Both the position numbers and the translations under genes were made by a program. The notes beneath the pieces are model-generated. The model was not told the origin of the DNA. It did no database searches and saw only the letters and a program-made list of their open reading frames with translations. From NCBI GenBank assembly GCA_027604505.1, contig JADIIX010000044.1:124001-162291 (forward strand): a stretch of 38,291 nt of DNA, written 5' to 3'. Positions 12,901-38,291 of the stretch are shown here, one piece after another (position 1 is the stretch's first letter; each line of letters opens with the position of its first letter). The DNA is from Gonapodya sp. JEL0774 (lineage: Eukaryota).

Positions 12901-13846
12901 GGACCGAAGTAGCAGTGGGAGCGAGGCTGGTGGGGACTCGGGTCACGTCAATACTGCCACCTACCGCCCCAGCTCCGGAAAGTACGGTGGAAAGACTCGC
13001 CGGCCCGCGGTGCATCTGCATCTGCATCGGCTGCTGCTGCTGCTGCTGTGGTGGCTGTGTGGAAGTGGAAGCCGACGTGGGCGTCGCGGCGGGAAGTACG
13101 TACACGATGTGCGGAGGAGGGGCAGCAGCATTGGAATATGCGACTGATGTCTGAGCAGCGGTTGTCTGGGTCTGCGGCTGCGTAGGGGTCGCTGTTGACA
13201 GAGCGAGCGGCTGGTTTTGGGAGGGGACGAGGTACTGTGGTTGGTGCAGGTGCAGGTGCTGTTGCTCCGTATGTCCGAGCGAGTGGTGGTGGTGTGATTG
13301 CGACTGCGACTGCGATTGGTGCACCAGCTGCTGGCCCGGGCTTGGATGTGCATTGGGTGGGATCAGGGGTGCGTAGGGGGGTGGACCGGGGAGTGAGGGG
13401 TGGAGGAGGTATCTGACGGGCTGGAGCGGGACCGAGGGGTGCTGTTGGTGTTGGGGGTGGTGGGGTTGGGATGGGAAGGGGTGCTGTTGGTGTTGGGGTG
13501 CTGGTTGCGATTGATATTGCTGGTGGTGAAGCTGGTGTTGGTGCTGGTGCTGGTGCTGGTTTTGTGAATTGTGTGGTTGCTGCTGTGTCTGGGCAGGGTG
13601 GTGGTAATGCACCTGCCCGGTCTGATGAGGTGGATGAGGAAGAGAAAGGGGATGTACGGATTGGAACTGGTGGTACTGGTGGTACTGGGGCTGGAAGGAG
13701 GGTTGGTGAAGGAGGTTGTGAGGCTGGATGGGCTGGCCCGGATGCACGAGGTGGGGAGCGAGGGTGGGAGCGGTCGGATTCGTGTTAGTGTTCGGGTTCT
13801 GGTTCGGGTTCGGGTTCTGGTTCGATGAGGACGGGGATTGAGGCAT
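9983..13846 (-). CDS. ~1194 aa protein: long Q/H/P-rich disordered region, R/E-rich coiled coil, and C-terminal AlkB-family 2OG-Fe(II) dioxygenase domain
   Basis: Exons 13846-10833, 10642-10151, 10061-9983 (3585 nt, in frame). The C-terminal domain reads GLKCFRNLMSPQRCASLLTEI...ARFGHAY...LHIDQP (HxD)...IVTLGV...GRARTEWSHGV (distal His)...RVSLNIR (RxxxxxR). Confidence 0.85.
13020..13825 (-). repeat. coding low-complexity and microsatellite tracts (polyQ, QH, QS and NP repeats)
   Basis: Plus-strand (ctg)n at 13031-13048, (gactgc)n near 13300, (tggtgc)n near 13540-13560 and (ggttcg)-like units at 13790-13823. Confidence 0.8.
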
Positions 13847-15620
13847 GTGGTTCAGGAGGTGGACCTGCACGAGCTGTGGCTGGTGCTGGCTCTGGGGATG
13901 CTGGGGATGCCAGTTGTGCGGGGAAGGTAGAAGGTAGTTCAGCTGTTGGGGCGTTGGTTGAGCTGGAGAGTACGGGGAGTAAGGAGGGAGTGTGATAAAC
14001 TGCTGAGTGTTTGAAAATGGGAGGGGAGTGGAGCTGTGGGGGGAGTGGAGGGGAGGAGGAAGGTGCGTGAGTACAGTGTGGGGTCACTGGTGGGTTCATG
14101 GGGCCCGAGTGGGGAAGAGATGCAACAGGAGCAGGAAGCAAACGCAACGTTCACCACCGCCCAGAGGGGGGACGAGAGAGTTGAGATCGCGGAGAAGATA
14201 CGAGTCGATTGGAATGCGCACAAGTGTGCGACTTGAGTTTCCGTGTCCGAGTTGCCCTTTGAGTCGATGGAAATTGCACCCACATTTTGTCCCTTTGCGC
14301 CATCGCCGAGTCCTGCTGGAGTGCGGGCGAATGAGACGGAGCGTTGACCGAGATGCGAGGAGAGATGTAGGGCGAGGACATGTGAGTGCTGAGGTCGGAG
14401 AGCCCAGCTGGGAGTGGGGAAGCGACATCCATTGCCCGTCAACACCCCTCAACCAGACAAAGTGGGGGTGATAAAGAGTCAAGAAGGAGCAGCCTGCGTT
14501 GACGAGCGACGCTCGATGTCGCAGTTTCAGTTTCAGTTGGGACTGGGAGCGGCTGCAGTCCCCGGTACAGCTCCGAATCCCCGCGCGGGAAAGCAGGTGT
14601 CCGCGCACAGTCTGTTTCTATGCCTCCCCCTCGCTTCTCGTCTGGAAATACCCCGCTGGTTGTGTCGCTGTTTTATGGGGGATTTCCTCGCTTTCCACGT
14701 CTTCGATGCTGGGTCTCGCTTCAGGTGCGGCTGGTTGAGTTTCTGTGGTCACGTCAAAGCTCATTACTCAACCTCCACACTCCAGCGCTTGTTCCCCCAC
14801 TCTCTGCAAATAAGTCTAAATTAATTTTAGTTATTTCTTGGAATGACAGTGGAGGGAACAGACGCATCTGACAGGTAATTGTCCCCGCTTATGAGAGACA
14901 CTGACCGTCAGTGTCACACCATTATACAGCCCATGTCTTAAAACACATCTGCCAGTGGATTGAAAAACAAGCATGTTATGAGAGAGTTGCCAGATTGTCC
15001 GTGCCTCCCACACTGCAGCAACTGTGTTCCATGTGGTGTGTGAGCAGATGTGAGTTCTGTCACTTTCAATTTGCACCCACCGTATCAAAAAGGACTATGC
15101 CATGGTCTTGACCTGTGATTTGTGGACAGCATGATGTCGCAATTTGAATGCAACAGAACTCACCACCTGGAGCATGCAAGAGTCCCGGCGAGGCACACGG
15201 GGTAAGAGGAGTCTCGTGCAGATGGCCAAGATAGACTGGGCTAAGAATCTGGGCCACTTTCGTAGCATAGTTTAGTGCCTATTCACGGTCTCCTTTGGGC
15301 TACCAATATTTTGTGAGTGGGTTTCTCATGGCAAGGTCTTGCTATCATGGGTATTACAATGTATCCCCGGGATAATCTGATGTTGGTGAACTCGAACTCA
15401 ATTGATTCACCACTCTTCAAAAGAGCGTGAACTACTATATCCACATAATGTCCCAGTATAGCTGCCCAGTATCTGAAATGTTGACGCCCAAAGATGTGAG
15501 GCAGGCATTGGTGCCGCGCCCCGTTCCATCCCCGGCTGGTCCGTTCCCCTCCCACAGACACCGCAGACATTCCCCCGATTCCCACGACCGGGTGGAAACA
15601 AAACGTGGACGCCGCAGGGG

Positions 15621-18600
15621 ATGCCGCCGCAGACGCCACCGCCCGATCGTCCGCCGTCGAGCGTGTCTGTGCCCCTCCACTGGCCTGCCGCTGTCCCGCA
15701 CCCCACATGGACTCCCGCTGCTGGTTGGACGCCGCACACGCTCGCCGCACAACACGCCGCACACGCCGCACACGCCCCATCTGCGATCGCCCCTCTGCCG
15801 TCTTTCCCTGCCGCACCCCTCGCTCCTCTCGTCCCGTCAACGCGCTCGCCTCCCTCCAATCCTGCTGCTGCTGCTGCTCAGTCACGCGCTCAAATACAAA
15901 GAATTCAACAGGACTCTTCGCATTTCCGTGTCCGCCATTTGGCAACGGCGGCGTTTTTGGAGGATGGCGTGCAGGCCGTGTCCAGGTCAAACTCTCGCTC
16001 AATCGCACACTCTCCCGGTGCTGCTGCCGGTGCTGCAGCCGGTTCCGCTGTCGGTGCTGCTGGTGGCGGTCCTGCTGCTGCGTCTCCTCCTTCTGCTGCG
16101 GCCTCAGCAACTCCCTCGCTCTCCAGACCTCAAAAGCACGACAAGCGACTCTCAAAGTCGGCAACTCCCGGCGCTCCCGCTCCAGCATCATCCGCAGTCG
16201 TCACTTTCTCAGACTCTCCCACTCGCCACGATTCCCAATCTCGCCCCCGTCCACGCCCACGCCCCCCGCGCGACCCCAACTCTCTTCTCCACCACCGCGC
16301 CATCCGCAACTCCCGCGCCTACATGCTCGACCCAAACACTCCTGCTCCTTTCATGACTCCTTACCCGCTCCCGGAATCTGTCGCCAACACGTATCTCCGC
16401 AACTCTTCTGTGCCACCCGTCATCGATTTTCTCACCTCGGAACCCCCCCCCACGTTCTCCCAGGCCGCCTCCTCCTCCATCCCTCCCGCTGTGCCGTCCG
16501 CACACCCCTCCTCGCCTACGCCCCCCGACAACACCACCCCAACAGCGGCACCCCCAGCCTCCATCCAGCGCTTCCGCTTCTCCGCCTTCGTACCCCCGCC
16601 CCACCACTCCCAGGCCCCAACCACCCCGGCTCCTGCCACATTACCCCCTGCATGGGCCGGCGACGCACCCCACTCGTCTTATTTCCGCAGGTACCCTTTT
16701 CCCGCCCCATCTCCCACACCGACACCACCACCACCCCTCGACGCCCGCCCCCTCTCCTCCCGCTTCTCCCTCAACCGCGTATCCTCGGTCTTCCTTGGCG
16801 CCGTCGCATCTCGCGCTCGGTCGGTAGCCGCGGCGCGGGGACAGGGACAGGTGGGACAAGGCGGGCAGGGAGCGTGGGAGGGCGGGGAAACTCCTGCTGC
16901 AGGGCAGGCACACGCGGCGCGCACCCCACGCTCCCCGTCCCCGTCCCAACCCTCCACACTCCACCACCGCACGGGGTACAAGTCCCATCTGAGCCCCACG
17001 ACTTCGTATAACGATCTTGCCAGCTCGGTCATGCGGGAGGAAGGAGGGGTGGACGGGGCCGGGATGGGTATGGGAATTGGGATGGGGACAGAGATGGGGA
17101 TGGTGACAGGAGACCCCGACGGCACCACCACCATTCCCCAGGACCACGACCAGCACGTCCCCGATGTCGCGACCACGTGGCCCGTGCCCCTCGAGGACCA
17201 AGACAACTCCGATTCTGCCTACCCGCTGGCGTTCGACCCGGACCCGGTGTCGGGATCGGTGCGTGTTTCGACGTCTGCGTCCGCATCAGGGAAGCTCCGA
17301 CATGCCGGGGGCGGTGGAGGCGCCTCGTCTCTGCAGAGGACTCTCGGGTTCCGCGACGAGGACCAGCGGGGAGTGACGTTTGCCGTGCCGGACCTGGACA
17401 AGGGGAGGGACCGGGGGACGTGGGCAGACGGTGAACCTCACTCGCATGGGAACGGGAACCTTCCTGCCCCTGCCGCCGCCTCTGCGTACCCCGACGACAA
17501 TCTCACGGACCGGTATCAGTACTTGTACTCAGGTCCCAATATGTCAGACCACCAGAGCGCGCCTGACAACGACCCACACGACCCGTACGCTATCCCGCTC
17601 GACTCACACTCCACGCTCGTGAGGCGGCACTCTCGGCCTTACAGTCCTTCTGGGGGCGGGGAGGAGTACTTGGATGGGGAAGTGAACGAGTTCGCTGACG
17701 CGTTCGGGTTGGGATACGCCAAGCAACCCCCCGGGCCGGACAAGACCGGCGACCTTGGTGCCGGCCCGTACTTCACCTCCGACGTGGACCTCGGCGCGTT
17801 GGGCCACCACCCTTCGTCTCTGCACAAGGCTGCCCGAGCGCGGAAGAGGAACCGGGCCGCGGTACACGGTGCCAAAGTGGTTCTGGCCCTGTTCATGGCC
17901 GCTGCGGGGTTCGTGGCCATCGTCCTGGGCGTCGTCAGGGAGTGGAACGCCGCGGTCGAGGCGAAAGGCAGAGCTGCGGTGAACGTGGTGTTTCCGGGGG
18001 GAGGGACAGGCGCGGGCACAGGCACAGGCACGGGGACGGGAACGGGAGCAGGGAACGGGGGTGGGACCAGCGCGACCGTACCGTACGCCAACATCACGTG
18101 CCCCTGGATCCCTGACGCAAACCTACAAGCTCGTTTGCAGCCACCGGTCGGCGTTCGCATGAGTGGGTTCTCGCTCAACTGGCAGCACGACTCCCCCGTG
18201 GCCCTCACGGCTCGTCTCGGGTTCCGGCCTTCGATTGTCGGCGCGTTCGCACACGTGCTGAACTCCTCGTACGAACGGGATATCCTTTTTTGGTACGCGG
18301 GGCAGTTGCAGGCTCAGGCAAAGGCATCTTCGAGTGCAGCGAACGGGTCAAGTACCGCCCTTAGCTTGGCGCTCATGCCCGATGTGGGACTCGAGAACGT
18401 AGCGGAGAGCGTGTGGCAGCAGGTGGCGGACGATTTGAAGACCGTGAATTACGGGATGGGGGTGCCTGTGTTTTTGAGGTTCGCACACGAGGTCGGTAGC
18501 AGGAGAAGTCTAAGGCGATTCTGTCGCCTTTGTGGCCCCTGTTCCAGGTTTTGACATCTCTTCTTTTGTTTCCGGGCTTCCTGTCCCGCTTTCCCTTTTC

Positions 18601-19599
18601 TTCCCCCTTCACCTTGCGCTCCGTCAGATGAACGGCAACTGGGTCCCGTACGGGCAACGTCCCCTTCAGTTCGTCAAGACCTGGCGGCTCCTCGCCTCTC
18701 TCGTCCGGTCCCGCACCAACCTTACTGCCATGGTGTGGGCGCCCAACATGGGGGCCGGGTACCCGTTCGGTTCTAGCGTCTACACCCCCAAGGTGGGAAG
18801 TGACGAGTACAATGCAACGGATACGAATCGAGACGGAAGGATCACAGTGATGGACGACCCCTATGGACCGTATTGGCCAGGACGGGATTGGGTGGATTGG
18901 GTGGGGATTAGTATTTGTAAGTTCTCTGTGAAGGCATCGAGGGGGGTAAGGGCGAGGGGGACTAGTTTGCGCGGGTTCGGGATCCCAACTGACCACTTCG
19001 TCCATTGTCATCAACTTTTTTGCTCACGCACGTCTAGACTGGTTCGGAAACACCTTCTCCGATGCCGTAAGCAACATCCTCCCTCCCACCGACTATGTTT
19101 CGACCATCGCCTTTGGCAATTCATCCTCGACTTTGGCTCAAAATGCCACCATCTTTGATTTCTATACCACCTATGCCGTCAATCAATCCCTTCCGATGAT
19201 GCTTCCGGAATCTGGAGCGTTGTTTTACTATTCGGACTCGAAAGGTGCAGCTGTTCCTGCGGGTGTAGGTGAGATGGAGATGAAAAAAGCGTTCTGGAAA
19301 CAAACATGGGTAGCAAGTGGGAATGGTGTTCCGCAGATGCCACTCGTGAGGGCCGTTGTCAAGTGAGTGTTTGACCCGATACGGGAGAAAGATGGTAGCT
19401 CAGCTGACGCAATTTCTTCGTTTGGTGTGTTCTCCGCAGTTTTGAAGAAGCCAAGCTTGATTCCCGCGGCAACGGTACATTTCAGCTGACGTTTAATGAG
19501 ACAATTCGTGCAAGCTTTCTTGCCGACGTTGCGGCGGATCTCAAGATCGGACCCAGCACGCTGGTGTATTATTGCGACGGCAAAATTCAGGTGGTCTAG
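15621..19599 (+). CDS. ~1214 aa type II membrane glycoside hydrolase family 26 (beta-mannanase/glucanase-like) with a long N-terminal disordered region
   Basis: Exons 15621-18491, 18628-18916, 19038-19362, 19440-19599 (3645 nt). TM helix VVLALFMAAAGFVAIVLGVV at 17877-17936 follows basic RARKRNR. GH26 motifs: VFLRFAHE|MNGNW (acid/base Glu at an exon junction), MVWAPN, YWPGRDWVDWVGISIY, PMMLPESG (candidate nucleophile). Confidence 0.9.
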
Positions 19600-23274: not shown

Positions 23275-26200
23275 ATGTCAGTAGCCCTTCCGCGACGGGA
23301 TGATGCAAAGCAACCCCTGGTGAGCTCGTTGTGATGGCCTGCTGGACGGTGTAGGTCAATGACACTTCTCCAATTCAGCTGCATGAAAGCGCCCATCGCA
23401 AAGATGCCAAACGAAATCCAACAAGTCAAATCGATGGAGCAGAGGAAGATTCGTGGTCTAATTGGGTCACCGTCGGACTTCTGGTGGCGACAACCGCGTG
23501 TGTTGCGGCGACGATTTGGATTGCATCGGACCTGAAACTTCCCACATACAACTGGGAGTTTATGAAAGAAGCAAGCGGACTTGTACTAGGCTCGGGGGAG
23601 TGTGAGTAGGATGTTGATTACAACGCCAGAAAGGAACAAAGCGCCAGTTCAACGCACTGTTCCTTATTTCATAGTGGCATCTTCCTCGTACTGTAGTGGT
23701 CACGGAATTCAAACAACTACGAATGTTTGTGTTTGTGACCTTGGGTATAGCGGCCATTCCTGTCAAACCGTAGTTGAAATCCGTGAGTGAGCCGCGCTAT
23801 CACGACCACAATGTCATGGCGACTATTCGATGCTGCTCTTACGCATTTGTGTCTCTTTTCCGGAAACAATATCTTCTCCTCAATTTCTAATATTATATCG
23901 CTCACAAGCCTCAATTCACCGACCAGAGGCCGAGTTTCCACTCACTTCCTCCCGACGCAGTATCTGCTTCGTTCTACCCTACTTCGGTGCCCTTAATCCG
24001 TACATTCCAGAGTCTTCTGCTTATGCTGAAATTGTCCGTACCGTATCACGGGGAGTCGGGCAGGAAGGCGGAATGGACGTGACTGTCCTCTACATTGGCC
24101 AGGAGGATAACACGGAGCAAGATGTGTGGAGTAGAGTGATGACTGAATGGCAGCAAATTGGTGTCAAAATTGAAAAGTAAGCGACCAGATTGGAAGAGTG
24201 GGAGGGTTCTTTGATACGACCTTTCTTTTGTCTTCCCCAAGACTCCCTTCCACCGGAATTCAGTTCACCAAGCCGGGGGTTACTTCGGTCTCATACGACG
24301 TTTTTCGCTATCTTCATTCCTTATCGGAACCGTGAGTATCTCTCGCATGCTCGGGAGGAACCACCATACCGTAATCCTCACAATCACGTTCTGCGATGAC
24401 AGTTATTCGGTCGTGCACTTCCTTTCTTCTACAGGGGCGGGATTTTACACAATGAAAGCACAAAAGCAGGGGCTTGTTTGCTTCTCTTCAAAGTTCGTCG
24501 TTCACGTGGACTCCCCCGGGGAACAAACGTTGCGTCGGCTCGCGGCAGCAGGTAGTCCGCCTAGGGATGTGGAAGTAGAAATGCTAAAGGCTGACTTTAT
24601 GGGACAAAAAATGGTGGAGATGGCGGTACGTTACTCAGTCGAAGAGCGATCACCAGGCTACGATAATGACCACGGCATGTGACCGCATAATCCAGGATTC
24701 GGTACTCACGTCTTTCGATGCCACAATATCAGATCTTGCCCAGCAGAAGTGGCAACTTCCGGAATCAATCTACAGTATCCCATTCATACACTCATCGTCT
24801 GGTGGTGGTGACGCCTCTCTTGGATTGCACCGTCGTTCTCTCGCGCCAATTAACGTAGATGAAATAACTTTCGTCGGCTCGCTCTCTGATGTCCATGGAC
24901 TCCAGCGTGTCTGTGACGCAATTGATATTCTTGATAACTCACTTGGTGATGTCCAATCCTTCCCTCGAATCACATTTCTGGGTCAGATCGGCAAGTTTGG
25001 GGAGATGCCTGCGGACGAGTACATTGAGTCTCGATCGCTCTCTTGGAACAACATTGATTGGGATGTAATAAGTGGCCCGCGAGCCGTCTCCGATATTGTC
25101 TCTTACCTCTCCGACGCCAAGGATGGTTCTGGGCCGCACCGTCTGGCAGTCCTCGCAAACCCATACGACCATTCTGGATTTTTTTACGCTGAGCTTGTTC
25201 GTGCGGGCGTGCCTGTGGTCGCTACTCGCCTACCTGCATATGAAGCAACTCTGGACCCCGAACTGCATTCGGACATGTTATTTGCGTCAGAGACGACTGA
25301 TTTGGTCCGCATTGTAAGAGAAAGTATTACAAGGGGCGCACTCACCCCAATCGCGAGGATTCCATTGATGGATGCTGTTGATACCAGCAATGCGTGGTTC
25401 GATATGTTCATGCGTAATGCCGCCGCGCCAGTGACATGTGACTCGAGCTCAGTCGTGCTTAGTGCTGATGCACAAAACACCGATTTCGATGATGCGGACA
25501 TGGATGGCCCTCTGATCTCGATTGTTTTGGTTCATCGAAATCGTCATCAGCTTTTAGAGCAAGCAATCAAGTCTATTGAAGACCAAACCTTCAATAATTA
25601 TGAAGTCGTTCTTGTCGACGACGGATCTGATGACCCAGATACTCTACAGTACCTGCAAGATCTTGCGTGGAAGTGGTGGGAGGAGCGTGGGTGGCGCGTT
25701 CTCCGGGAACCTAACCGCTACCTTGGAGCAGCCAGAAATACTGGAGTAAAGTACGCAAAGGGCAAATACATTCTTTTCATGGACGATGATGACTACGCCA
25801 AGCCACATCAGCTGGCAACTCTCGCCCGGGTCGTTGCGAACACAAAGCCTGACATTGTCACGGCAGGTCACGACCTCTTCGAAGGATACAGTTCTCCACC
25901 TGGCCAAGGACTTGCTCAGGGCCGCTATCTCCCTCTTGGATCTGCAACTACGGTTGGCCTTCTTGAGAATGTGTTCGGCGACTCCAACATGCTCGTTGAG
26001 CGTAACTTTTTCATCGACACTGGTGGATTTTCTGAGACATTCGGAGTCGGTTTCGAGGATTACGAATTTTTCGCAAAAGCGGTCTTGCGCGGTGCCAACC
26101 TCGAAGCTCTCCCTGAGTCACTTCACTGGTATCGTCGCCATCCGAAAGCGATGTCTTACAACACTGACCTGAAAGCTGGTCAAGTGAGATATCTGAAACC

Positions 26201-29200
26201 TTACCTCGAAGCTGAGAGAAATGTCGATCTCTCAACTCGAGAGGTTATAGGGCTGGCGAAGAGACGTTTCTTCGAGTCTTTCCCCGGCATGATGTATGTG
26301 CTGTTAAATGTCACTGGTCCGAACCCTCCAGGCCCGGAGCCTTTCTGCCCCAACGCAAACAATGGCAGTCGATCTTGTTCTGAGGATCGATGCTGCTCCA
26401 AATCTTTCATCTCAAAGAACACCACTTACTGTGACTTCCTCTGCAGTGAGTTTGGAGAATTCTGCGAGGCCAAAAAGTATCCTCTTTTTGATCTGTTCCT
26501 CCGTGTTCTCTTGCGATAAACAGGCTGCTTCCAGCTCGTATCCTTGGATAAAACTGTCTTCCCCGTCGGAATCGGACAAACGCTCCGAGCAACGGTCAAA
26601 AATCTAGATATATTCAGCACCCCAGGGGACGTCAACCTTTTGAAGTGCAAATTCAGCTTTCCTGCCACAAATTTCGTCAATCGCACTTCGGCCGTCATTG
26701 TTAGCTCAAACACGCTCTTGTGTCCCGTTCCTGTTTCCCTGCCTTACTATGCTCCTGGCGTTTATGGTTGGCAATTTTCGATCGAATACCCGACTGATGA
26801 TCGCATCGTTACAGTTCAGGCGACAGCACCAATGTCGATAAACCCTTACCCAGGTTCTTTGAACATTTCTGCGGGAAACACGATATCAAAGATACGCCCG
26901 GTAACACCTGATGTTCAGGGTTCATTTTTCATCGGAGGGACTTGCAGTATACCGCTCACCTTTACAGCAATGGATTACAGTCGCTTCGCCAATGGCACGA
27001 ATTACCCAGCGTACTGTGTCATCAACAACACGGTTGGGGGCGGTATGCCAATGTACAGTCCTGCTGTACCGGTTAATGGTACCTTCGGAGCATACACATG
27101 TTCGATCAATTGCTCATCCTCCACTCAATACCGGCTACAAATGACTCTAGATTATAATGTCACCGCAAACACATTCAGCAATCTCCTAGCTGGTAGTGTC
27201 GTTGTCAATATTTATGATTCGGCACCCACAGTGCTGTCAGCGGTCCTCTCCAACTCGGGTGCATCCATCACATTCAGCTTCAGCAAACCCATCCGGATCA
27301 GCGGCTACCCAACCCTTCCTACGAGCCTTACAGGATCACAAATATTTGATTCTTCGATGAAGGTTTTGTTTTGTGGAGACCAGGGTACCTTAAGCGACCT
27401 GGTAGTTCGAGTGTTGAACAGCGTAACCCTGGTGGTTGATTTACCATTTTCAAACACTCTGAGCTTCTCTGGGGATTTACCCCAAGTGGTATTCAAGCCG
27501 CTCAGCATCTTCTCTGCGATCAGCAATTTCGATGATTACTTTGGTGTGTCCGCGTCAGCAAGCGTTTCCCTTCCGCCATCACCTCCTGTCCCAGTGGCAG
27601 TAATTAGTGGGCCAGATGCTGTTTCGTATTGTGACTCACTTACTCTCACTGGTCTCAATTCCTATAATCTGGCTGGTCGGCCTGGTACCTATACTTGGAG
27701 CGTTCTTCCTTCCCACGGAGACGTTGTAGCATCTTTATCGTCGACTGCCACAATCACACTGAGCAAGGACATTTTATCGGCACACAAAGGGCAAACCTAC
27801 ACTTTTAGTATCACAGTCAAAAATTGGCTGCAGGGATCTTCTACTGCCACGAAAATTGTGAAGATTAGCGACAAAGGTATTCCGAGTGTCCGGGTGATTG
27901 GAGGGGCCGTGCAGAACATCACAAGTGGGGACGTTTTGACCCTCAAAGCGACTGCTACTTTGTCCATGTGTCAAACCAACTCCAGCAGTGCCCTTGTGTT
28001 CGAGTGGTCGTACAGCCCTTCGTCAGCATCCTTCGATCAAGCATTTGCCACAATGAAGAACAATCCATTCATTGTGGTTCCCTTCTCAAGTCTCTCACCT
28101 ACGCAAATTTACACTTTTTCCGTGTTGGTGTATCCAACCGGGCAACCCGATGCCTCTGCAACAACTGCGGTCACAGTTCGGCCCGTGTTAGGTCCAGTTG
28201 TTGTCTCACTCGGAGCCAGAGCGCGAACAATTTCGGCATCAACAGCGGCAACATTCTATGCTACATATCAAGATTTATCGGCGTTGAGCCTTTCAAGTCG
28301 TGTGATTACGTGGACTGCGTCTTTGGTTGGAGCGGGAACTCTGTTCCCTCTTGACCAGCCAGCGCAAAGTGGAACGGCACTAACGATCAAGGGAGGCACT
28401 TTTACCGCAGGAACTACTATAGTCCTGTCGGTTCTGGCCGATGCCAAGGACGGCACAGGCAGATCCGCGAGTGCGTCGACAACTCTTACTGTGGTTGCCG
28501 AAAAGGTCGTTAGCGCTTACAGCTTCGTTACTGCGCCATCCTACGGAGCCACTACGATATTGCAGTCAAACTCGCTCCAAGTACGCGCTTTTGTGGATCC
28601 TGCATCCATCGTGATCGGTACCCCCGTCTCTTACAGTTGGAGCTCAATTGCAGGCACTGCATCTGACAACGCCACGCCTCTAACGGTACTCACTTTGAGC
28701 AACTCAACAATCACGGATGGCGTTACATCGGTAGCGAGATTAAACGTCGCGCCTGGAGTCCTAGTTCCTGGGGGATACTACAGGTTCCAGTGCACGGTCT
28801 CTCAAGTTGGCTCTTCAAGCACAACCACCTCTGTCGAAGTTAAGGTGGCAGGTCTTCCGACGAGCGGTACTTTGTCACTGACTCCCAGCACAGGCATTAA
28901 GGCCTTGAAAACGATCGTAACTTTATCAGCTCCATACTGGACTGTGATTTCTTCAGAGCAACCATTACTCTACAAGTTCAATATTTACGTTCCGCATACG
29001 TCATATGGAACCCCCAATGTCCTTCCCGCTGTACAGATTTCCACTGACAAAGACAGCTCTGTGGACACAATACTTCCGATTTCGTCTACTTCCAACGTTC
29101 TCATTGAACTCATTGTCAAGTCGTCCATAACGCAAGCATCGACCACAACCACAATGGTTGTATCAGTTGTCAGTGACCTTGCTGACTGGACCGAGTTCAG

Positions 29201-31034
29201 TAGTCTCAACGACGCGGCTGTCGCTGCCGCTCAGAAGGCAGGGAGCGGGATGAATCGCGTCATTCAAATCTTTGCTACCTCAATGAAAGAATGGAAACCG
29301 TCAGTCTCTCTGCCACCATCTATTGCGCAAGCAATTGTAGCGAACACTTTGAATAATGTGTTCGCCAGCAATGTGGTGAGCCCTGATCTGTCCGCTGAAA
29401 GAATTGCAACAATAAGCGCCTTGGTAGACTGCGTCACATTGACCTCGGACCAAGGATCGCAGATTGGTTCCTTTTTGGCGAATGATATTGCGCGCTTGGA
29501 GTCTCAGCAAACGTCCAACCCAAGCTTCTCGATATCTGACAGTGATCTCAAATCGTACTACAAGGCCTTCTCTGGCGTGCTGACTTCCTACACTAATACG
29601 ACAACCAGCGCTAACCAATCGGAAACACTTATTTCTGGAATCCAGGCTGCCCAGCGGCTCAACCTACGATCCATGGCTTGTGGTCAACAAGGAAAGTCTG
29701 CCGCGTTCGGTGATCTTTCGACTTCCATCGGTAAATCAGATCTTTCCTCGAGTGGAACCGTTGACAGCGGAAATGGAACCAGTTTCGGTTTTGGTTCCGG
29801 TCTATCGCTTTCTGTCGGAGACCATAGCGTAAATTGTTTCTGCACACAAGCCCTAAATTCACCCCCGTATCAATTCAACTATGTCGGTGGTATGGCATCG
29901 TAAGTGGATGCTTTGGGTGATCCTACCTGTAGTCGCAGTATTTTGCTCACTAGCTTTTCTCGTTTCAATTCCGAAAAGAAATCAATCGGTGGCCTCCAAG
30001 GTCACAACATTTACAATGGGAGATTGCTCAGAAGGGCCTTCTTTTTCAAATGGTCGTCTGAATCCCAATGGTAGTTTGGAGATCAACTCGACTTCAAACC
30101 AAATTACATTCTCCCTCCCCCTGTCTTCTTCGGTCACCAAGGGATTCAACCCCAGAAATCAATCTTGTAAGTGAAACCCCTGACGGTGTTAGCCTTGTCA
30201 CGCACTAACCCTCAAACTCGATCGCATGCGAAGTCCGTTGTCAGTTTGTCGACCCCGTCACTCGGCTCTTCTCAACTTCCGGAGTCGAGACTCTCAGTTT
30301 TGACAACACAACAGGAATACTTTATTGTAAAACTACCCATTTGACATCGTTCAATGGCGCAGTTGGCCCAACCACTCCAGAATATCCACAAACACCAAGT
30401 GAGAGCTCCACAAACGTTGGAGCGATTGTAGGAGGTGTGATCGGCGGAGCAGCGTTGGTCGGAATTGCCGCAGGAAGCGTTTACTTTGTACAAAAGAAGA
30501 GGAAGGAGAAGGATTCGAAGCAAAAGATGTGAGTCTGGATTTAGATGGATCAGAACTGGTCTGACGCGTTGCGCAACAAACTCTGTCCATGCTTCTAGTC
30601 CTGCGCCGCAATCGACGACGTCAAAGCCCCCCGAGATGCATCAGAAGCCTCTGGATGAGATGAAGAATGCTGCTAAACCTGATTCCGCGGGGCCAGCGGA
30701 CACTATTCCAGTTCGCGCGCCGCCGACTCTTGATGCTAAGGTCCACACACCGACCAGCGAAAATGTGAACTCTGATCCTCCAACATCGTCAAGCAAACCA
30801 GTAGAGCGAGCGTCCCAATTGTCCGCACCACCCGAAGTCCCTCCGGAGGTCGATACAACGACCTCGGTGGCCGAGCCAGTTGCGTCAGTTCCTGTGGCGG
30901 CATTCACCTACACACCACGATTTAGAGAGAGGGAGGAGATTCCTGGCCTTCCTCTCATCCGCTTCGGTCCTCTCTACGAGCTTCCTTTAGAATACGCAGA
31001 TGCCATGAAAATGTTGGGGTTGCGCACCGGTTAG
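23275..31034 (+). CDS. ~2338 aa two-TM fusion protein: signal-anchor TM, EGF, GT4-like (GT-B), GT2 (GT-A), Cys-rich linker, REJ/PKD-like, GAIN/GPS, TM, Pro/Ser-rich tail
   Basis: Exons 23275-23319, 23379-23601, 23675-23782, 23909-24176, 24242-24331, 24403-24625, 24696-26445, 26524-29889, 29954-30166, 30234-30528, 30599-31034 total 7017 nt. All junctions are GT-AG and phase-consistent. Confidence 0.85.
23692..23763 (+). other. EGF-like module
   Basis: CSGHGIQTTTNVCVCDLGYSGHSC. Confidence 0.75.
25506..26160 (+). other. GT2 (GT-A fold) glycosyltransferase domain
   Basis: PLISIVLVHRNR..LLEQAIKSIEDQTFNNYEVVLVDDGSDD, YLGAARNTG, YILFMDDDD (DxD), GGFSE, FEDYEFF, WYRRH. Confidence 0.92.
27580..29180 (+). 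other. REJ/PKD-like beta-sandwich repeats
   Basis: PVAVISGPDAVSYCDSLTLTGLNSY..YTWSV, LTLKATATLSMC..LVFEWS, YSWS..LNVAPGVLVPGGYYRFQCTV, PTSGTLSLTPSTGIKALKT..APYW..PLLYKF. These are typical of polycystin/REJ modules. Confidence 0.75.
30236..30352 (+). other. GPS autoproteolysis motif
   Basis: RCQFVDPVTRLFSTSGVET...ILYCKTTHL/TSF. The HL|T triad is at 30338-30346, about 25 aa before the TM helix VGAIVGGVIGGAALVGIAAGSVYFV followed by KKRK. Confidence 0.85.
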
Positions 31035-31151: not shown

Positions 31152-34100
31152 TCACCTCCGTCTTTCGAACGCATAAATTGCCACGATCTGCACAATCATC
31201 CAAATAACCGAAAATGACGCTATGATCAGCAGGAGACGTCGCTTTGTTGTGTTGCTCCATCCGAAAATTTCTCGATGTGTTGTCTGTCTTTGATTGGTAT
31301 CGGAGGGTTGGAGGCTGCTATGGCGGGCGTAATAGTGCCTTATGTTCGAATGAGGTAATGGATGGGTGACATTGGGGGAAGTTTGGTTGGGCACAGGATC
31401 AGCAGCACCACTGAGTAGTCGCCGGGGGCGGTACGAGAGACCCAAGACGATGAACGGAAGTACATATCCGAGCATCGTTGCGCTCGTGGCGCCAACAAAA
31501 GCGAATATCTATAAATGGAAACAAGAAATTGTAAATACTATTCGGCTTTGCGATGGAACTGCTTACTTCATCTAGGTTTAAAACAAACGTGGCAATCGTA
31601 GCGGAAGCCAAAATGAGAGAAACGGTTAAGAGAAAGTGTGGGATCTGTTTGATAAAGGTCACAAAAGGTGGGCAACAGTGGTGTGGTGAAAATGCAACTT
31701 ACAGTTCCCCACTGCTCTCCGTACCATTCAAAGTTCCCATCCAGTGGTACACCTCTTACTATGGCACTATTGATACTGTCCGAATCTGATCCCATTATAC
31801 TAGACCTCCTGCCGTCATCCGAAACAGTGGTGTCACTACTGGTTCGACGCACGGAAACATTGTCTGCATGTCTTTCATTGATGGAGCCATATCCGTACGC
31901 GAGAGACATGAAAAGAACATGGAGACGGCGACGAAGACGCGTTAGGAGTGAAGCAAGTGCCGAACGACAAGATTGAAATTGGACAGCGTAAGATGCCATA
32001 AGAGATATGGAGAACGCCACACGGGCGATAACAGCGGTGACTGATGTGATAGGATCTGAGAATGGCACGGTGTGGCACAGAATTAAGAAGCTGACAACGA
32101 GCCACTACCTCTCGAAACCTACAATTGTTCAGCAAGTTCCCAGCGACTTTGTCCTTCCATGTCAGCCACCCAAACCATCCGATAAACATGTAAACAACCG
32201 CACTGAGGGCTAAGGAGATATCGATGACGATCCCCATCCGCTTAAAGTTATGATCTTGAAGCTCGTTGTAAACGGTGTAAATCTAGGGGACAAAAAGAAG
32301 AGGAAACGTCGTAACGGTTGTGCTATACGGGTAAATCATCGAAAACTGACATTTTGGTGGCAACTGAGATAGGAGAATCGAGGTGAAGTCGGTCGTCTTT
32401 TCTGGCATTTCGCACATTCTGCTCACCTCATCAAGCTCACCAATAATGAAATGGCATATATCCCCTTCACCGCAAACTCCCCCACATCTTTGAAAAGGTC
32501 AACTCCACTTGATGCTCCATCCACGTCCAGACTTACTTTCACGGGTGCCGTGTGATCCCCGTGAACACGCCACCACATGACGACCATAAACACGACGTAA
32601 ATAACAGCAAGGTCACCGAGTACAGATGAAAAACGAAGAGAGTAGAGATGGCGTGGGAGTGAGAGCGGGATGAGAAGAACAGTGCACACTGTGTGCAACA
32701 TATGAACACTAGTAAATGCCTGTCAATGAATCGAGTGACCTAATTGCGCACTGTACCTCCAATCCACACTGATCGGTCGGTGGCCCAATTCTTGAGAGTC
32801 GAAGAAAGTTCTGCAGCTTCCGCGACCCGGGATAGGGAGTCGGACACTGCGACGAGGTAGCTGCATAACATCAAGCACCAAAACACAACGGGGTCGTGCG
32901 TAAGCTATAATTTGAGAGGCAGTTTTGCGGGGCATGCGCGCCAACCCACCCCGAGCAAGATCCGAGAGTCAAGACACAAACCACAATATCAACCCCATCC
33001 ATCTCAGCTCCTCCGGGCCATCCTTCACCTCCATAATATTGCCATCTTGTACCACCCACGGCGGCTCTAGCAACACCAGCCCAATTAACTGCTCCTGTGT
33101 CGCCCACTAACCGACGAGAGGCTCGCACTGAAGATTTGAGGGTTGCGGATGTGAGTAGAGCAAAGAAGAGGACAACGCAGCTCGCAACTTTGGGAGTGAG
33201 AAGCTGAAAAGCGAGGGGGACTGTCAAAAGTGGTGCCGCTGTTAAGGATTTGGTGAGAATAAGAACAGAAGAAAGCACTTCGGTAACAGTTTGAGAAAGA
33301 AAAGGGCGATTAGATAGAGTATAAGGGCATTTGTGACTCCTTCTACTGCCTCCTGCTCTCTCAACCGGGGCCGAACCGAAGCTCACCAGAAGCGCCTGCC
33401 GGCCTCCCAACAATCACCACGTCATCCTCTTCCTGCTCTTCGACTTCGACCTGTCCCTCTTCTTCATCATCCTCCACGCTGTCTCTTTGGATTCGGGATG
33501 ATCTGTTGCGGCGATGCCGTTGACGGGAAGGAATAGCTTTGGTTCCGTATGACGGACGCGCGGGAATCTGGGGGGTCATCTCCCCGGATGAGGAGCTAGA
33601 ATAGACAAAATGAGCAGTTTAGAAAATATGTTGAAATGAGCAGTTTCGAATATATGCAGAGATGTTCCAACAGGAAAACAGCCGAAGGAATACGCTCACC
33701 CAGTGGCCGCATCATCCCCACCGCCGTCCTCCCATTCAACGTTTCCGTGGTCAAGTCCATTTATTTGGGCGATGTCAGCATCTCTACTTTGCTCACTGAC
33801 ATCACTGTTACCGGGCTCTCTAGTGTCGCCGAATACAGTGTTGGAGATGGAGGACAGAGCCGACACTGGGTTGGTGGTCAGTATTCCTGCGCCGCTGCCC
33901 GAAGTGCTCGCCTCGGATACCTTCCGCGAGGTACGCTTCAAAGATCCAACAAACCGGTCTTTGCTGAGACTTGGGGCCGACCCTTCGGGCGGGATGGAAC
34001 TGTCTGATACAGCAGAGAGGCGGGAAACTGGTGAACCAGAATCACAATATTCGCCATCATCGCCTGAGTTATAGGGTATGCTTTCTCGGGAGGAGTTAGG

Positions 34101-35023: not shown

Positions 35024-38000
35024 TCATCCACATAAACTGTCAAAATTCTCCAGACCTTCTGTGAGCTCCATGACCTTGTCGAGCGCCTTTTCAATTCCTC
35101 TATCGTCAACAACAAGGTTGTATCTGGACAACGAATTCGTGGTGATGGACTCATTGGACTCCGAACCATCACTGGACATTTTGTTGTGAGCGACCCGTAT
35201 GAGACTCAGCATGTAAGAGGGTTGCCGCTCCGCAATAAAATCTATGAGCGTGGAATTAGGTCGCGAGGTTGTACTCGCAAGGGTTTCGAGAAGGCGTTTC
35301 AACAGTCGCGAGATCACTGGTAGAAATATGGCGAGAAAGGGGATAGAGGGATTAGATGTAGAGCGACGGAAGAAACGAAGAAGGGTCATCCACGTAGAAG
35401 ACAAGCTGTCGGCAAAAGAGCTTCCTCACAATTGGCAGGTGTCCAAAACCGCCCAACAACATTCAAAGTCGCCATAACTATGTGGACTTGACTTCGTAAT
35501 TGATCCATGAATATCGCAGCGACCCGTCTAGTTTCTGCCGGGATTTGTGCATTTCTGTTGCCGCGATCATTAAATTTGAGGAGCTCTCGCATGGCAACCA
35601 TAAGCGATATTGTTGTCATTGCCGCTGGAGAGAAACACTCAGTCAATTTGCCAATCACAATCAGATAAAAATACCTCAAAATTGAAGACTCACTCCCGTA
35701 GCACCACCAAGGGGTTGCAAGCTCCCCAATCATCTCATAACCAAATGTGACAGTAAAGTAAGAGAGGGCTTTCATCGCTGCACTGCCATGATCCAGGGCA
35801 TTCACAAAGCCAGCTTGGGAGATCCAGGAAACCAAATATTCGGGTGTCTCATCAGGTGATTGAGAAGAGGGAGAAGGCATTGGTGCAATTGGCGAATAAA
35901 AGAATGAGTAGAGACAGTGGTACCTGCAAAAGACATTTTCAAAAGAGTGATTCAAGCAATAACCACGGCTGTTCTTGAGAACATTTCCGCACTCACTGGA
36001 TGAACAGCATCAGGGCCCAAGGTTTCGAAGTCATGGCTGATTGAAGTGGTTGCACAACTTGTGCCGAGTCAGTGGAACTTCCGAGGGACATCGTCTGGGG
36101 TTTCGTTCCGAGGGTGGCACAAAACCTCGCGAACCACGTTTCGAGCGTTGTCTTAACCTCCTCCCGCAAAGCTCTTGCATGCATTAACGGGGAGGTGGTT
36201 TGTAAATCCTTTGCCGCTGAATCGTCGGACAACAAAATACTTCGCCTCGCGCAATAAAGTCGCTGTGTAAAAATCAAGGCAAGATACGAACGATTCATAC
36301 AAAGGCAAGAAAACATCATTGTCAGAAATTTCTCACAAACTCATTGATTTTTCCCAAGCAATGTTGTGTCGCAGCGCTCAATGCGAACGATCCGAGCGCA
36401 ACTGATGACGTGGTCGCTCCGGGTGGAACGGACGTGAGAACAGCCGATGAAAAGGGGGTGTGTGGTGGGGTAGGAGAGTCAAGTGCCCAGTAGACGCGGT
36501 CGTAGAACACTAACATTTGGTGACTCTGTTGAAGGATTATGAATGATAAGATCCACTCTTTGTACTAACTCTCAAGTGATGGGGTAGCAGAGAACGTTGC
36601 CTACAAGACGAGCACTACATCAAGAATTCATTCCGTGTGTGCCGTCACCTACTTTTGAACTCACACAAGAAGCCGCATCGGACTCCTCGGTCCAAAGCAT
36701 TTCATGACAAGGAAGTTGGACCATCGAGAATTCCTCGTATGGGAACTGCACTGTGGTCATGTGCGAACTCGAGTGAAGTTTGTCGAGATGCCCTATGATC
36801 CAAAGTGTCCTCCTTTTTTCCTCTTCCTCAAGCCAAGTCTCCCTGCCCGATGGCAATCCGGACGACGGGGATGACTCTGCGCAAAGGCACCATGCACCAG
36901 CCGACAACACCGCCACATTAGTACGCAGGGAATATAAATCCAACTCGTCCGTTTTGAACACGGTGAAGTTGATGAGTGCCTGCATGTTGTAGAGAGAATG
37001 GTTGGAGATAAGTTGGGGATACAAACGTAGAAGTCGTGAGCCGACGGCCTCCCGGTGCAAGGTACGGAATGTGGGCGAAGGATGGTATCGAGTGGCAACT
37101 GCAAGCATTCTGAAAATGGATGGATTGAATACGTGGCGCCATTCAGCTCAATCCCGAACAAAGCCGCATTGGTGAAAAACATACCCCAGAGTTAAAGCCA
37201 AGTGACGGCACTGCGCCGTTCTGGAAAACCTTCCCCTGTGCATGAATGGCCACGAAGTAGCAAATTTATCAAAGTAAAGGGATAGCAACTCATTGCAGTC
37301 TGAAGTCGACGGGAGAGGAGGAAGATCGTCGAATAACGAGGTTTCAAACAAACTCGGATTGGAAGAAGACCGGTTTGCATTGTAACAGCAATCTTCAGGA
37401 AAATCGTCCTTTTCGAAATCATCTCGAAGATCCAACAGATGCGCCGGCAAGCCAAAAGTTGATCTGTGGGGGCCAAACCAATCATGAGTTTGTACGCTCT
37501 GATGCTGAGGCTGGAAATGTTCCGACAAAGAAAGCGGCGATTTGAGCAAAGTGAGTGTCGGGGGATCAGATGTAATTGCGTCTGCACCCAAGGCGAGCGA
37601 AGCAAGAAAGTCCAGTTTTTCGGGAGACGGCGCGGAAAGATTGATATCTGTGCAGGGTGGCTGTAGTTTAGGAGCCGATACAAGTGCAGGCTCCTGAGAA
37701 GGAGTAAGCGGTTGAGACGGATGCAGTCCCTCATTCCCAACAGGAGACTTAAGCAAGTGTGCTTTTACGCCACCGACATGGGATCCCAGAAGAGCCTGCA
37801 TTGAAAGCATCGGGTCATACTCAATTCTGAAATCTCGAAGAGGAAGGGGCAGGAATACCTCCAGTCTCGCAAGCCTATCTGTCATTCTGACCCAATAGCC
37901 AAACTTAGACAGTTGGCGATAATGAAGAATCTGGACGTCAGCACTCACGCACCTTTTACCTTTCCCCAGCTCGGGACGTTTCCTGTTGGACCGTGGAGTG

Positions 38001-38026
38001 AGGTTTGAATCCATCACTTTTGGCAT
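35024..38026 (-). CDS. fungal-specific transcription factor domain protein (Fungal_trans / middle homology region), multi-exon; true start uncertain and may lie upstream
   Basis: RKRP..|MTDRLARLE dimerisation-type helix, ELLSLYFDKFATSWPFMHRGRF, MLAVATRY and EEEEKRRTLWIIGHLDKLHS..VQLPCHEMLW. Helical C-terminal exons end at 35024. Confidence 0.8.
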
Positions 38027-38291
38027 TGCACCTTATGTAACAGAATGGAACCAAGGGATATGAAGGCTGAAGTAAGTTGTGAAAATCGGAGATTCGTGTG
38101 GTTTGAGGAATACGCAAAATGCGGTGGGTGTACGCTCTTGAAAGACGTTTACCCGCAGAGCAGGGAGTTGTTGCTTGACCCGCCTGTGTTTGTGACAACA
38201 ATACGTTCCGAAAATATTAACCCTTTCCCCCCGCACTAATTGACCTCACTTAAGTGAGGGTTTTAGAAAATATTCCTGACGCCCAACCACA

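What the first reader, a model, noticed from the sequence alone, without database searches (positions are those of the whole stretch)
23275..31034. Single gene fusing tandem glycosyltransferase domains to a polycystin/adhesion-receptor REJ-GAIN/GPS-TM module
Seen: the GT2 ORF (24666-26519) and the REJ ORF (26544-29903) are in the same frame. The only stop between them lies inside a clean 78 nt intron (GTGAGT at 26446, pyrimidine tract, CAG at 26523), and the second ORF has no ATG or signal peptide of its own. Splicing gives one ~2338 aa chain: TM-EGF-GT4-like-GT2-Cys-rich-REJ-GPS-TM-tail. Established: REJ plus GAIN/GPS modules occur in polycystin-1 and sperm receptor for egg jelly proteins, which are adhesion or mechanosensory receptors rather than enzymes. 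Inference: a double-anchored lumenal or cell-surface glycan synthase coupled to a self-cleaving receptor stalk, possibly for zoospore or gamete adhesion, encystment or wall building. I do not know of a characterised protein with this architecture.
Basis: partly seen in the sequence, partly recalled or inferred. Interest (0 to 1): 0.9.

Follow-up and report, generated by a model that had tools for sequence, protein, structure and literature searches.

The report
Sugar enzyme on self-cleaving receptor stalk
This chytrid-type fungal gene likely makes one membrane protein that joins a sugar-adding enzyme to the stalk and predicted self-cutting domain known from polycystin-1 and adhesion receptors, an uncharacterised design also found in other early fungi and in social amoebae, where it could be tested.

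Summary
Observation confirmed. An 11-exon model gives one open 2333-aa chain: anchor, EGF, GT-B, GT-A, Cys-rich linker, TIG/PKD/REJ rod, GAIN with HL|T, TM, tail. The joining 78-nt intron has the best of 315 candidate donors. No RNA run was available for this gene, but relatives carry the same fusion in one chain: many chytrids, an aphelid, a metchnikovellid, Dictyostelium and other amoebozoans, including transcript-derived and uninterrupted ORFs. Correction: it is not two working enzymes. The GT-B donor-binding motifs are absent in 27 of 27 fungal-type sequences but kept in 14-15 of 15 amoebozoan ones; GT-A catalytic acids are invariant. Fungal and amoebozoan GT-A domains form one clade (98/98). 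It is neither a polycystin nor an adhesion GPCR (single C-terminal TM). Best reading: a lumen-facing inverting GT2 on a self-cleaving tether that builds wall, cyst or coat glycan; donor, acceptor and cleavage untested. Ten literature searches found no description of the architecture. The scan noted this family before on other DNA (e1-7130512).

The parts
23275..31034 (+). Whole gene, 11 exons (23275-23319, 23379-23601, 23675-23782, 23909-24176, 24242-24331, 24403-24625, 24696-26445, 26524-29899, 29979-30166, 30234-30528, 30599-31034), 2333 aa
   Evidence: Open frame, all introns GT-AG; better fit to the family profile than the NCBI model; no reads available
23466..23522 (+). N-terminal signal anchor (aa 45-63)
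   Evidence: One of only two hydropathy peaks above 1.6; same position in most full-length fungal-type relatives
23692..23763 (+). EGF-like domain (aa 96-119, four cysteines)
   Evidence: Pfam EGF_2 23.3 bits against cut-off 22.1; EGF_Teneurin E 4.5e-05
23950..25418 (+). GT-B (GT4-like) domain, aa ~140-560, over exons 4-7; predicted catalytically dead
   Evidence: Fold matches GT-B enzymes, 7qsg Z 15.9, MshA 3c48 Z 14.3 (only the exon-7 part was folded); motifs GGIGT, GRLxxRKG, [ED]NxPxxxxE absent in 27 of 27 fungal-type sequences
25506..26282 (+). GT-A (GT2) domain, aa 590-848, with DDGS (25617-25628), DDDD (25782-25793) and GFEDYE (26049-26066)
   Evidence: Pfam PF00535 E 4.7e-28; model pLDDT 84.8; heparosan synthase 8viw Z 23.4, rmsd 2.6 over 219; acids invariant
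26346..26528 (+). Cys-rich linker (aa 870-904) that crosses the joining intron
   Evidence: relatives have a variable Ser/Thr-rich, Cys-rich or inserted linker here, several ending in a similar C..CF motif before the first TIG strand
26446..26523 (+). Joining intron, 78 nt, holding the only in-frame stop (TAA 26517-26519)
   Evidence: Best of 315 donors; same donor used by the NCBI model
26529..29177 (+). Rod of beta-sandwich domains: TIG/IPT-like (low confidence), then PKD/REJ repeats (aa 905-1787); Pfam REJ best stretch 28350-29141
   Evidence: Pfam REJ E 1.6e-25, K319L-like PKD E 5.6e-07; model; AAVR PKD 7wjx Z 11.7; family profile hits plexin/MET IPT and KIAA0319L
29187..30361 (+). GAIN domain: helical subdomain A (29187-29666), beta subdomain B over exons 8-10, GPS motif 30239-30352 with H-L|T at 30338-30346
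   Evidence: Four GAIN structures among the top 8 fold matches of the exon-8 model, Z 9.7-10.3; family profile covers latrophilin-1 GAIN 4dlq 95-381, E 1.5e-08; GPS profile without this protein scores it 16.5 bits
30416..30484 (+). C-terminal transmembrane helix (aa 2152-2174), about 25 residues after the cleavage site, followed by a basic stop-transfer stretch
30485..31031 (+). Cytosolic Pro/Ser-rich tail; two tyrosines near the end (30963-31007) spaced like the LPxY/PPxY motif of relatives but imperfect here
   Evidence: [LP]PxY in 16 of 27 fungal-type tails, 0 of 15 amoebozoan

Best explanation
The gene likely encodes one secretory-pathway membrane protein whose lumen-facing GT2 domain is predicted to add sugar to a wall, cyst or surface-coat glycan, while its REJ rod and GAIN domain would act as a self-cleaving tether that positions and later frees the enzyme end. 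Steps. (1) Shown in sequence: two hydrophobic helices flank EGF, GT-B, GT-A, rod and GAIN. (2) Inferred: signal anchor in, C-terminal helix out, so both termini are cytosolic and all domains face the lumen or outside; amoebozoan relatives use a signal peptide instead. (3) Inferred from conservation: GT-A is an active, metal- and nucleotide-sugar-dependent inverting transferase; work is most likely done in Golgi or secretory vesicles where donors exist. (4) Inferred: GT-B is a dead scaffold or glycan-holding domain in fungi; in amoebozoa both sites look intact, as in bacterial two-site polymerases that alternate linkages. (5) Predicted: GAIN cuts itself at HL|T2128, leaving the pieces held non-covalently until force or trafficking parts them; the tail's tyrosine motif would control removal from the surface. 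Donor and acceptor are unknown.
For: Fusion in one chain across chytrids, Amoeboaphelidium, Amphiamblys and dictyostelids, Echinostelium, Clastostelium. Uninterrupted ORFs: L006 (1966 aa in 6081 nt) and L010 (1978 aa in 6125 nt), 2 of 79 loci fetched, amoebozoan type; fungal-type P0029 has 2210 aa with GT2 and REJ on a 6730-nt contig and P0039 is a 'complete' transcript ORF. GT-A: D682-D684 27 of 27, E773 27 of 27, E776 27 of 27 fungal-type; mean identity 56% in GT-A against 29.5% in GT-B. Topology: EGF; signal peptides in amoebozoan forms; N-glycan sequons in the GT module 45 seen against 105.7 expected in fungal-type, 35 against 70.5 in amoebozoan, 63 against 84.8 in presumed bacteria, which fits exposure to lumenal glycosylation; all 22 sequons of this protein lie after residue 856. 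GAIN by profile and fold; H, L, T are the residues whose mutation blocks cleavage in latrophilin-1 (PMC3321182). Nearest solved GT-A folds are polysaccharide synthases and wall-polymer transferases.
Against: No reads, activity, localisation or phenotype for any member. The nearest solved enzymes are only 16-24% identical, so donor and product cannot be read from them. The cleavage motif is optional in the family: CxxxHL[TS] in 13 of 27 fungal-type (some truncated) and 9 of 15 amoebozoan sequences. This GPS lacks the second disulphide (C2108 kept in 27 of 29, C2124 in 25 of 29 relatives) and the usual Trp, which could abolish cutting. With GT-B dead, a polymerase role is weaker in fungi than in amoebae. 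Sequon depletion is also partly seen in bacteria. Seven cysteines in the linker is an odd number, so the junction region of my model may not be final.
Confidence: 0.5

Rival explanations
1. Self-glycosylating surface adhesin or sensor: GT-A decorates the protein's own Ser/Thr-rich linker or rod on the way out, and the product works at the surface as a glycan-coated, force-releasable adhesion protein for settling, host attachment or gamete contact.
For: Many relatives carry a long Ser/Thr-rich stretch directly after GT-A; other REJ-GAIN proteins carry adhesion-type heads such as fn3, filamin, EGF, TSP1; REJ proteins are tied to gamete recognition (PMC4700764).
Against: This protein and the amoebozoan forms have a short linker without a mucin-like run; bacterial relatives of the same GT pair have no such acceptor; a one-to-one enzyme per acceptor is costly.
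Confidence: 0.2
2. Ordinary Golgi-type transferase with a passive stalk: the REJ-GAIN part is only a spacer, folding aid and second anchor; it is not cleaved and does not signal.
For: HL[TS] missing in about half of the family; degenerate GPS in Amphiamblys, L006, L010, L011; short Cladochytrium paralogues P0011/P0015 join GT to a TM without REJ; amoebozoan paralogues have the GT pair without REJ.
Against: HL|T and the following Phe are kept here despite fast drift of the rest of the stalk; the 1300-residue stalk is kept in lineages far apart, including a reduced parasite.
Confidence: 0.18
3. Receptor with a glycan-binding head: the GT folds bind a glycan or nucleotide sugar without useful turnover and the GAIN-TM-tail piece reports it.
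For: GT-B is already dead in the fungal branch and GT-A gained a Trp-rich insertion (W647 in 27 of 27 fungal-type); tails carry PY motifs.
Against: Every GT-A catalytic acid is invariant; the tail has no enzyme or known signalling domain and is poorly conserved.
Confidence: 0.08
4. Two neighbouring genes or a broken gene: a 926-aa type II glycosyltransferase ending at TAA 26519 and a separate or dead REJ gene.
For: No reads for the junction; the unspliced GT frame ends in a plausible stop; intron retention could give such a short form as a minor product.
Against: No room for a promoter, no signal peptide in the REJ ORF; top-ranked donor; fusion in dozens of relatives including intron-free ORFs.
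Confidence: 0.04

Closest known systems
Polycystin-1 family and receptor-for-egg-jelly (REJ) proteins
   Same: PKD-type repeats, REJ module and GAIN/GPS just before a transmembrane helix.
   Different: One helix after GAIN instead of the 11-TM body given for polycystin-1 (PMC9672506, abstract in listing); no PLAT or channel domain; an enzyme pair in place of lectin heads; a second, N-terminal anchor.
Adhesion GPCRs (latrophilin, BAI3, GPR126, GPR110)
   Same: GAIN fold and H-L|T site about 25 residues before the membrane.
   Different: No seven-helix receptor, so no target for a tethered agonist; one GPS disulphide instead of two.
Bacterial GT4+GT2 multi-domain transferases and two-site polymerases (heparosan and chondroitin synthases)
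   Same: The GT-B/GT-A pair is 30-37% identical to bacterial proteins; GT-A fold closest to heparosan synthase and related GT2 enzymes.
   Different: Sent into the secretory pathway, fused to a eukaryotic stalk, GT-B motifs lost in the fungal branch.
Dictyostelid and other amoebozoan GT4-GT2-TIG-REJ-GPS proteins (P0380 D. discoideum ACTFIW_006316, P0287, P0291); uncharacterised, automatic names only
   Same: Same domain order; GT-A in one clade with the fungal form, 98/98.
   Different: Signal peptide, no EGF, intact GT-B motifs, no PY motif. From recall only: dictyBase lists 'poly-glycosyltransferases' pgtB, pgtC, pgtD; I could not test whether this is pgtD.
Gal_Lectin + Glyco_transf_34 fusions of anaerobic gut fungi (PMC6712302, passages)
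   Same: A glycosyltransferase joined to a domain related to polycystin-1, in early-diverging fungi.
   Different: Different enzyme family and different partner domain; no REJ or GAIN mentioned in the passages read.

Membership tests
GT2 (GT-A, inverting) | GT-A fold and Pfam Glycos_transf_2 above cut-off | tested here: met
   98.7 bits against 23.3; Z 23.4 to 8viw
GT2 (GT-A, inverting) | DD(G)S, DxD and ED catalytic acids | tested here: met
   Present here and invariant or nearly so in 27 fungal-type sequences
GT2 (GT-A, inverting) | Sugar transfer from a nucleotide sugar with inversion | not testable with these tools
   Needs an enzyme assay
GT4 (GT-B, retaining) | GT-B fold | tested here: met
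   Exon-7 part matches GT-B enzymes, Z 14-16; Pfam GT1_4 only E 0.05, below cut-off
GT4 (GT-B, retaining) | Donor-binding Arg/Lys and acidic E-x7-E-type motif (motif role recalled; conservation measured here) | tested here: not met
   0 of 27 fungal-type for each of three motifs; 15, 14, 15 of 15 amoebozoan
GAIN domain | Helical subdomain A followed by beta subdomain B ending in a GPS motif | tested here: met
   Helices then strands in the exon-8 model; GAIN hits Z 9.7-10.3, middling for a helical part; family profile spans 4dlq 95-381. Exons 9-10 were not folded.
GAIN domain | H-L|T/S cleavage residues | tested here: met
   H2126, L2127, T2128; defined in PMC3321182
GAIN domain | Two conserved GPS disulphides | tested here: not met
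   Only C2093/C2122 kept; partner pair replaced by V2108 and T2124
GAIN domain | Autoproteolysis | not testable with these tools
   Needs expression and blot
Polycystin-1 family | REJ module plus GAIN | tested here: met
   Pfam REJ 90.1 bits against 25
Polycystin-1 family | Multi-pass (11-TM) body after GAIN | tested here: not met
   One hydrophobic helix after GPS, then a 159-aa polar tail and stop
Adhesion GPCR | Seven-helix domain after GAIN | tested here: not met
   a single C-terminal helix here
Two-site glycan polymerases (heparosan-synthase-like) | Two intact transferase sites in one chain | tested here: not met
   GT-B motifs lost here; met by sequence in amoebozoan relatives
Dictyostelium pgt poly-glycosyltransferases | Orthology to pgtB, pgtC or pgtD | not testable with these tools
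   PMC2620749 not held; supplements of PMC3188802 unreadable; 'pgtD' found in 0 papers

The most novel reading that the evidence does not exclude
An enzyme-on-a-GAIN-stalk protein was already present in the common ancestor of amoebae, fungi and animals: a glycan synthase that cuts itself and is released or switched by force on its REJ rod while a cell builds its cyst or spore wall. It would be a third use of the GAIN domain beside adhesion GPCRs and polycystins, possibly the Dictyostelium GAIN protein cited as proof of the domain's age, and the fungal branch turned a two-linkage polymerase into a one-site enzyme pinned at both ends.
Probability: 0.25. Interest if true: 0.87.

Novelty: new variant of a known kind. 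Interest (0 to 1): 0.68.

Why it matters
GAIN domains are studied almost only in adhesion GPCRs and polycystins, and what they did before animals is open: PMC3321182 notes a GAIN in Dictyostelium, and PMC10445921 finds none on amoebozoan family-2 GPCRs. Here is a conserved GAIN-bearing family whose head is an enzyme, with a member in a model organism, so cleavage, force release and catalysis can each be tested by point mutants. It also offers a candidate non-chitin wall or coat glycan enzyme for chytrids, aphelids and metchnikovellids, and a clean case of one active site dying in one lineage.

Tried and rejected
No own genome was held and no RNA holder was listed; neither is evidence. A word-seeded search with the REJ exon for longer proteins returned only P0001, a sensitivity limit. 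The profile-free library search gave 241 REJ relatives: 0 of 25 scanned in Pfam and 0 of 147 scanned with my GT profile carry the GT pair, apart from P0001, P0005 and P0178, which were counted with the family. Foldseek on the whole stalk gave only generic multi-Ig hits, TM-score under 0.25. The first 139 residues of the stalk model have pLDDT under 50. The stalk does not confirm a single fusion: an amoebozoan stalk profile scores fungal-type stalks lower (median 120 bits) than unrelated REJ proteins (191). Trees of the whole GT pair or of GT-B alone do not join fungal and amoebozoan forms; I read this as long-branch drift of the dead domain, but two fusions are not excluded. A general dibasic (Kex2/furin) cut after GT-A was rejected: present in many relatives, not at that place here. 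Whether gi66815909 of PMC3321182 is P0380's gene could not be checked. The idea that Amphiamblys keeps this gene in place of chitin synthase found no support in passages read. ESM Atlas gave only GT1/GT2 clusters; Rfam 0 hits. Literature: 10 searches found no paper describing GT plus REJ/GAIN; subscription papers, dictyBase and the unread supplements of PMC3188802 may list the Dictyostelium gene.
Full report
Observation. The two long ORFs lie in one frame and are parted by one TAA at 26517-26519. The stop sits in a 78-nt GT-AG interval, 26446-26523. I built an 11-exon model from splice signals and frame; it is open over 7002 nt and gives 2333 aa, with ten GT-AG introns of 59-126 nt. Scored with a matrix from the nine other donors, 26446 is first of 315 GT dinucleotides in the two long exons. 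The REJ ORF has Met codons, the first about 100 residues in, none followed by a hydrophobic stretch. The top database hit, P0001, is NCBI's model of this locus, named Gonapodya sp. JEL0774. It uses the same donor and also fuses the halves, but skips much of GT-B and of the GPS; a family profile built without either model prefers mine, 1245 to 1050 bits.

Anatomy. Only two hydrophobic helices stand out, aa 45-63 and 2152-2170. After the first comes an EGF domain. Exon 7 folds with pLDDT 84.8 into the second lobe of a GT-B fold and a GT-A fold: best matches heparosan synthase (Z 23.4, rmsd 2.6 over 219 residues) for GT-A and GT-B enzymes at Z 14-16; Pfam gives GT2 at E 4.7e-28. Exon 8 folds (pLDDT 70.6, first 139 residues unreliable) into a string of beta-sandwiches, then a helical bundle and strands. 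PKD domains match the rod (Z 11.7), and four GAIN structures (BAI3, GPR126, GPR110, latrophilin-3) are among the top eight hits for the bundle, Z 9.7-10.3, which is middling for a helical part. A family profile independently covers the latrophilin-1 GAIN, residues 95-381, E 1.5e-08, and plexin/MET IPT domains. The GPS in exon 10 keeps H2126-L2127-T2128 and one cysteine pair but has lost the other pair and the usual Trp. PMC3321182 (passages) shows that H, L and T are needed for cleavage and that two disulphides hold the turn, so cleavage here is plausible but not assured.

Family. The search with the GT exon for longer proteins found 231 hits among 7990 candidates, 120 listed. They include 2100-2700-aa proteins of Chytriomyces, Podochytrium, Entophlyctis, Irineochytrium, Cladochytrium, Zopfochytrium, Dinochytrium, Phlyctochytrium, Obelidium and Nowakowskiella, many with Pfam REJ or GPS, and Amphiamblys; a cluster member is from Amoeboaphelidium. 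A second search (129 hits, 120 listed) found GT4+GT2+TIG+REJ, often with GPS, in Dictyostelium species, Cavenderia and Acytostelium, and in transcriptome ORFs named Echinostelium and Clastostelium. Of 79 metagenome loci, 3 carried the stalk: L006 and L010 as single uninterrupted ORFs of 1966 and 1978 aa (amoebozoan type), L011 (fungal type) with what looks like an intron after GT-A at another position. Fungal-type P0029 packs 2210 aa into a 6730-nt contig and P0039 is labelled a complete transcript ORF. The fusion therefore does not depend on gene prediction. I put it at about 0.95 for this locus.

Which sites are alive. I picked 96 of the 384 proteins in hand (counting my model) for a tally. 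Three GT-B motifs (GGIGT, GRLxxRKG, [ED]NxPxxxxE) occur in 0, 0, 0 of 27 fungal-type sequences, 15, 14, 15 of 15 amoebozoan fusions, and 21, 23, 26 of 39 presumed bacterial ones. GT-A acids are kept: D682-D684, E773 and E776 in 27 of 27. Mean identity among fused forms is 56% in GT-A and 29.5% in GT-B, against 61% and 43% in the others. The role of these motifs in donor binding is established knowledge of GT4 and GT2 enzymes, recalled; the counts are measured. So the fungal protein most likely has one working site. The cleavage motif CxxxHL[TS] is in 13 of 27 (several sequences are truncated) and 9 of 15.

Topology and origin. Amoebozoan forms begin with a signal peptide, fungal forms with an anchor and mostly an EGF, so the GT pair faces the lumen in both. 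Sequons are scarcer than expected in eukaryotic GT modules (45 of 105.7 expected; 35 of 70.5) than in bacterial ones (63 of 84.8), weak support. In an IQ-TREE analysis of GT-A (51 of 96 rows, 257 columns, bootstrap not fully settled) 14 fungal-type, 7 amoebozoan fused and 4 unfused eukaryotic rows form one clade, 98/98; Klebsormidium and Pucciniomycotina versions fall outside. Group labels of unnamed rows are my inference; P0336, labelled bacterial, groups with Pucciniomycotina. Against a single fusion: whole-module and GT-B trees do not join the two groups and the stalks are no closer to each other than to other REJ proteins. One origin before the amoeba-fungus split is the simplest reading of the GT-A tree and the shared domain order; transfer between the groups or two fusions remain possible.

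How it most likely works. The protein would be threaded with both ends in the cytosol. GT-A would add sugar from a nucleotide donor in the Golgi or secretory vesicles, to a wall, cyst or coat glycan; the dead GT-B would serve as scaffold or hold the chain; GAIN would cut itself and keep the pieces latched, turning the C-terminal anchor into a releasable tether; tyrosine motifs in the tail (LPxY/PPxY in 16 of 27 relatives, imperfect here) would govern removal. I give this 0.5. Rivals: self-glycosylated adhesin 0.2, passive uncleaved stalk 0.18, glycan-binding receptor 0.08, two genes 0.04. The link to walls and cysts rests on the nearest enzyme folds and on the life cycles of the named hosts (own knowledge); PMC5923282 (passages) lists a 'poly-glycosyltransferase' pgtB among Dictyostelium spore-wall genes, but I could not relate it to this family.

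Comparison and novelty. It works like a GAIN-anchored single-pass surface protein with an enzyme head. It is not a polycystin-1 or adhesion GPCR (no multi-pass body), nor a two-site polymerase in this lineage. Ten full-text searches found no description of GT plus REJ/GAIN. Papers seen: passages of PMC6712302, PMC5923282, PMC8724618, PMC13197933, PMC3321182 (one supplement searched without hits), PMC10445921, PMC12716839, PMC6299283, PMC5381614, PMC4700764; PMC9672506 as search listing only; PMC3188802 listing only, supplements unreadable (56); PMC2620749 not held (52). The members sit in public databases under automatic names, and the Dictyostelium gene may be catalogued as pgtD (recalled, unchecked). 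Verdict: real, conserved, uncharacterised; new variant of known kinds; interest 0.68.

Noticed in passing
window 11001-19000: G+C rises to 55-67% against 46-55% elsewhere, over two long low-complexity ORFs (10643-14083 minus, 1146 aa; 15477-18554 plus, 1025 aa), neither with a Pfam hit.
   Followed up: partly
window 15477-19366 +: Intron-split gene with a long Pro-rich N-terminus, one TM and a C-terminal domain whose motif recalls GH26 mannanases (recalled); only a non-significant hit to a GH26 structure, 6ueh E 0.58, and no Pfam hit.
   Followed up: partly
window 3146-7000 +: ATP-dependent DNA ligase gene in several exons (Pfam DNA_ligase_A_N and A_M).
   Followed up: partly
window 10147-10680 -: Possible AlkB-like 2OG-Fe(II) oxygenase exon, Pfam E 0.16 only.
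   Followed up: partly
window 31152-32282 - and 36620-38032 -: Amino-acid transporter gene convergent on the finding, and a fungal-specific transcription factor gene.
   Followed up: partly
P0001 against window 23783-24436, 26244-26331, 29900-30364: The public model of this gene skips conserved parts of GT-B and the GPS by using other splice sites, so its GPS is invisible to domain scans.
   Followed up: yes
P0329-P0359: Pucciniomycotina yeasts and smuts have ~2000-aa proteins with the same GT4+GT2 pair (motifs intact) plus GT8 and no REJ; a separate branch in the GT-A tree.
   Followed up: partly
P0004, P0006-P0010, P0012, P0013, P0019, P0020, P0022-P0024, P0037: Chytridiales members carry an extra ~230-residue domain between GT-A and the first TIG domain, several preceded by a dibasic RRDN/KRDN site that could be a Kex2-type cut.
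   Followed up: partly
P0105, P0089, P0293-P0298, P0304: The GT pair also occurs without REJ: with an EGF in Klebsormidium, and in secreted ~1100-1200-aa proteins that group with the amoebozoan fusions.
   Followed up: partly
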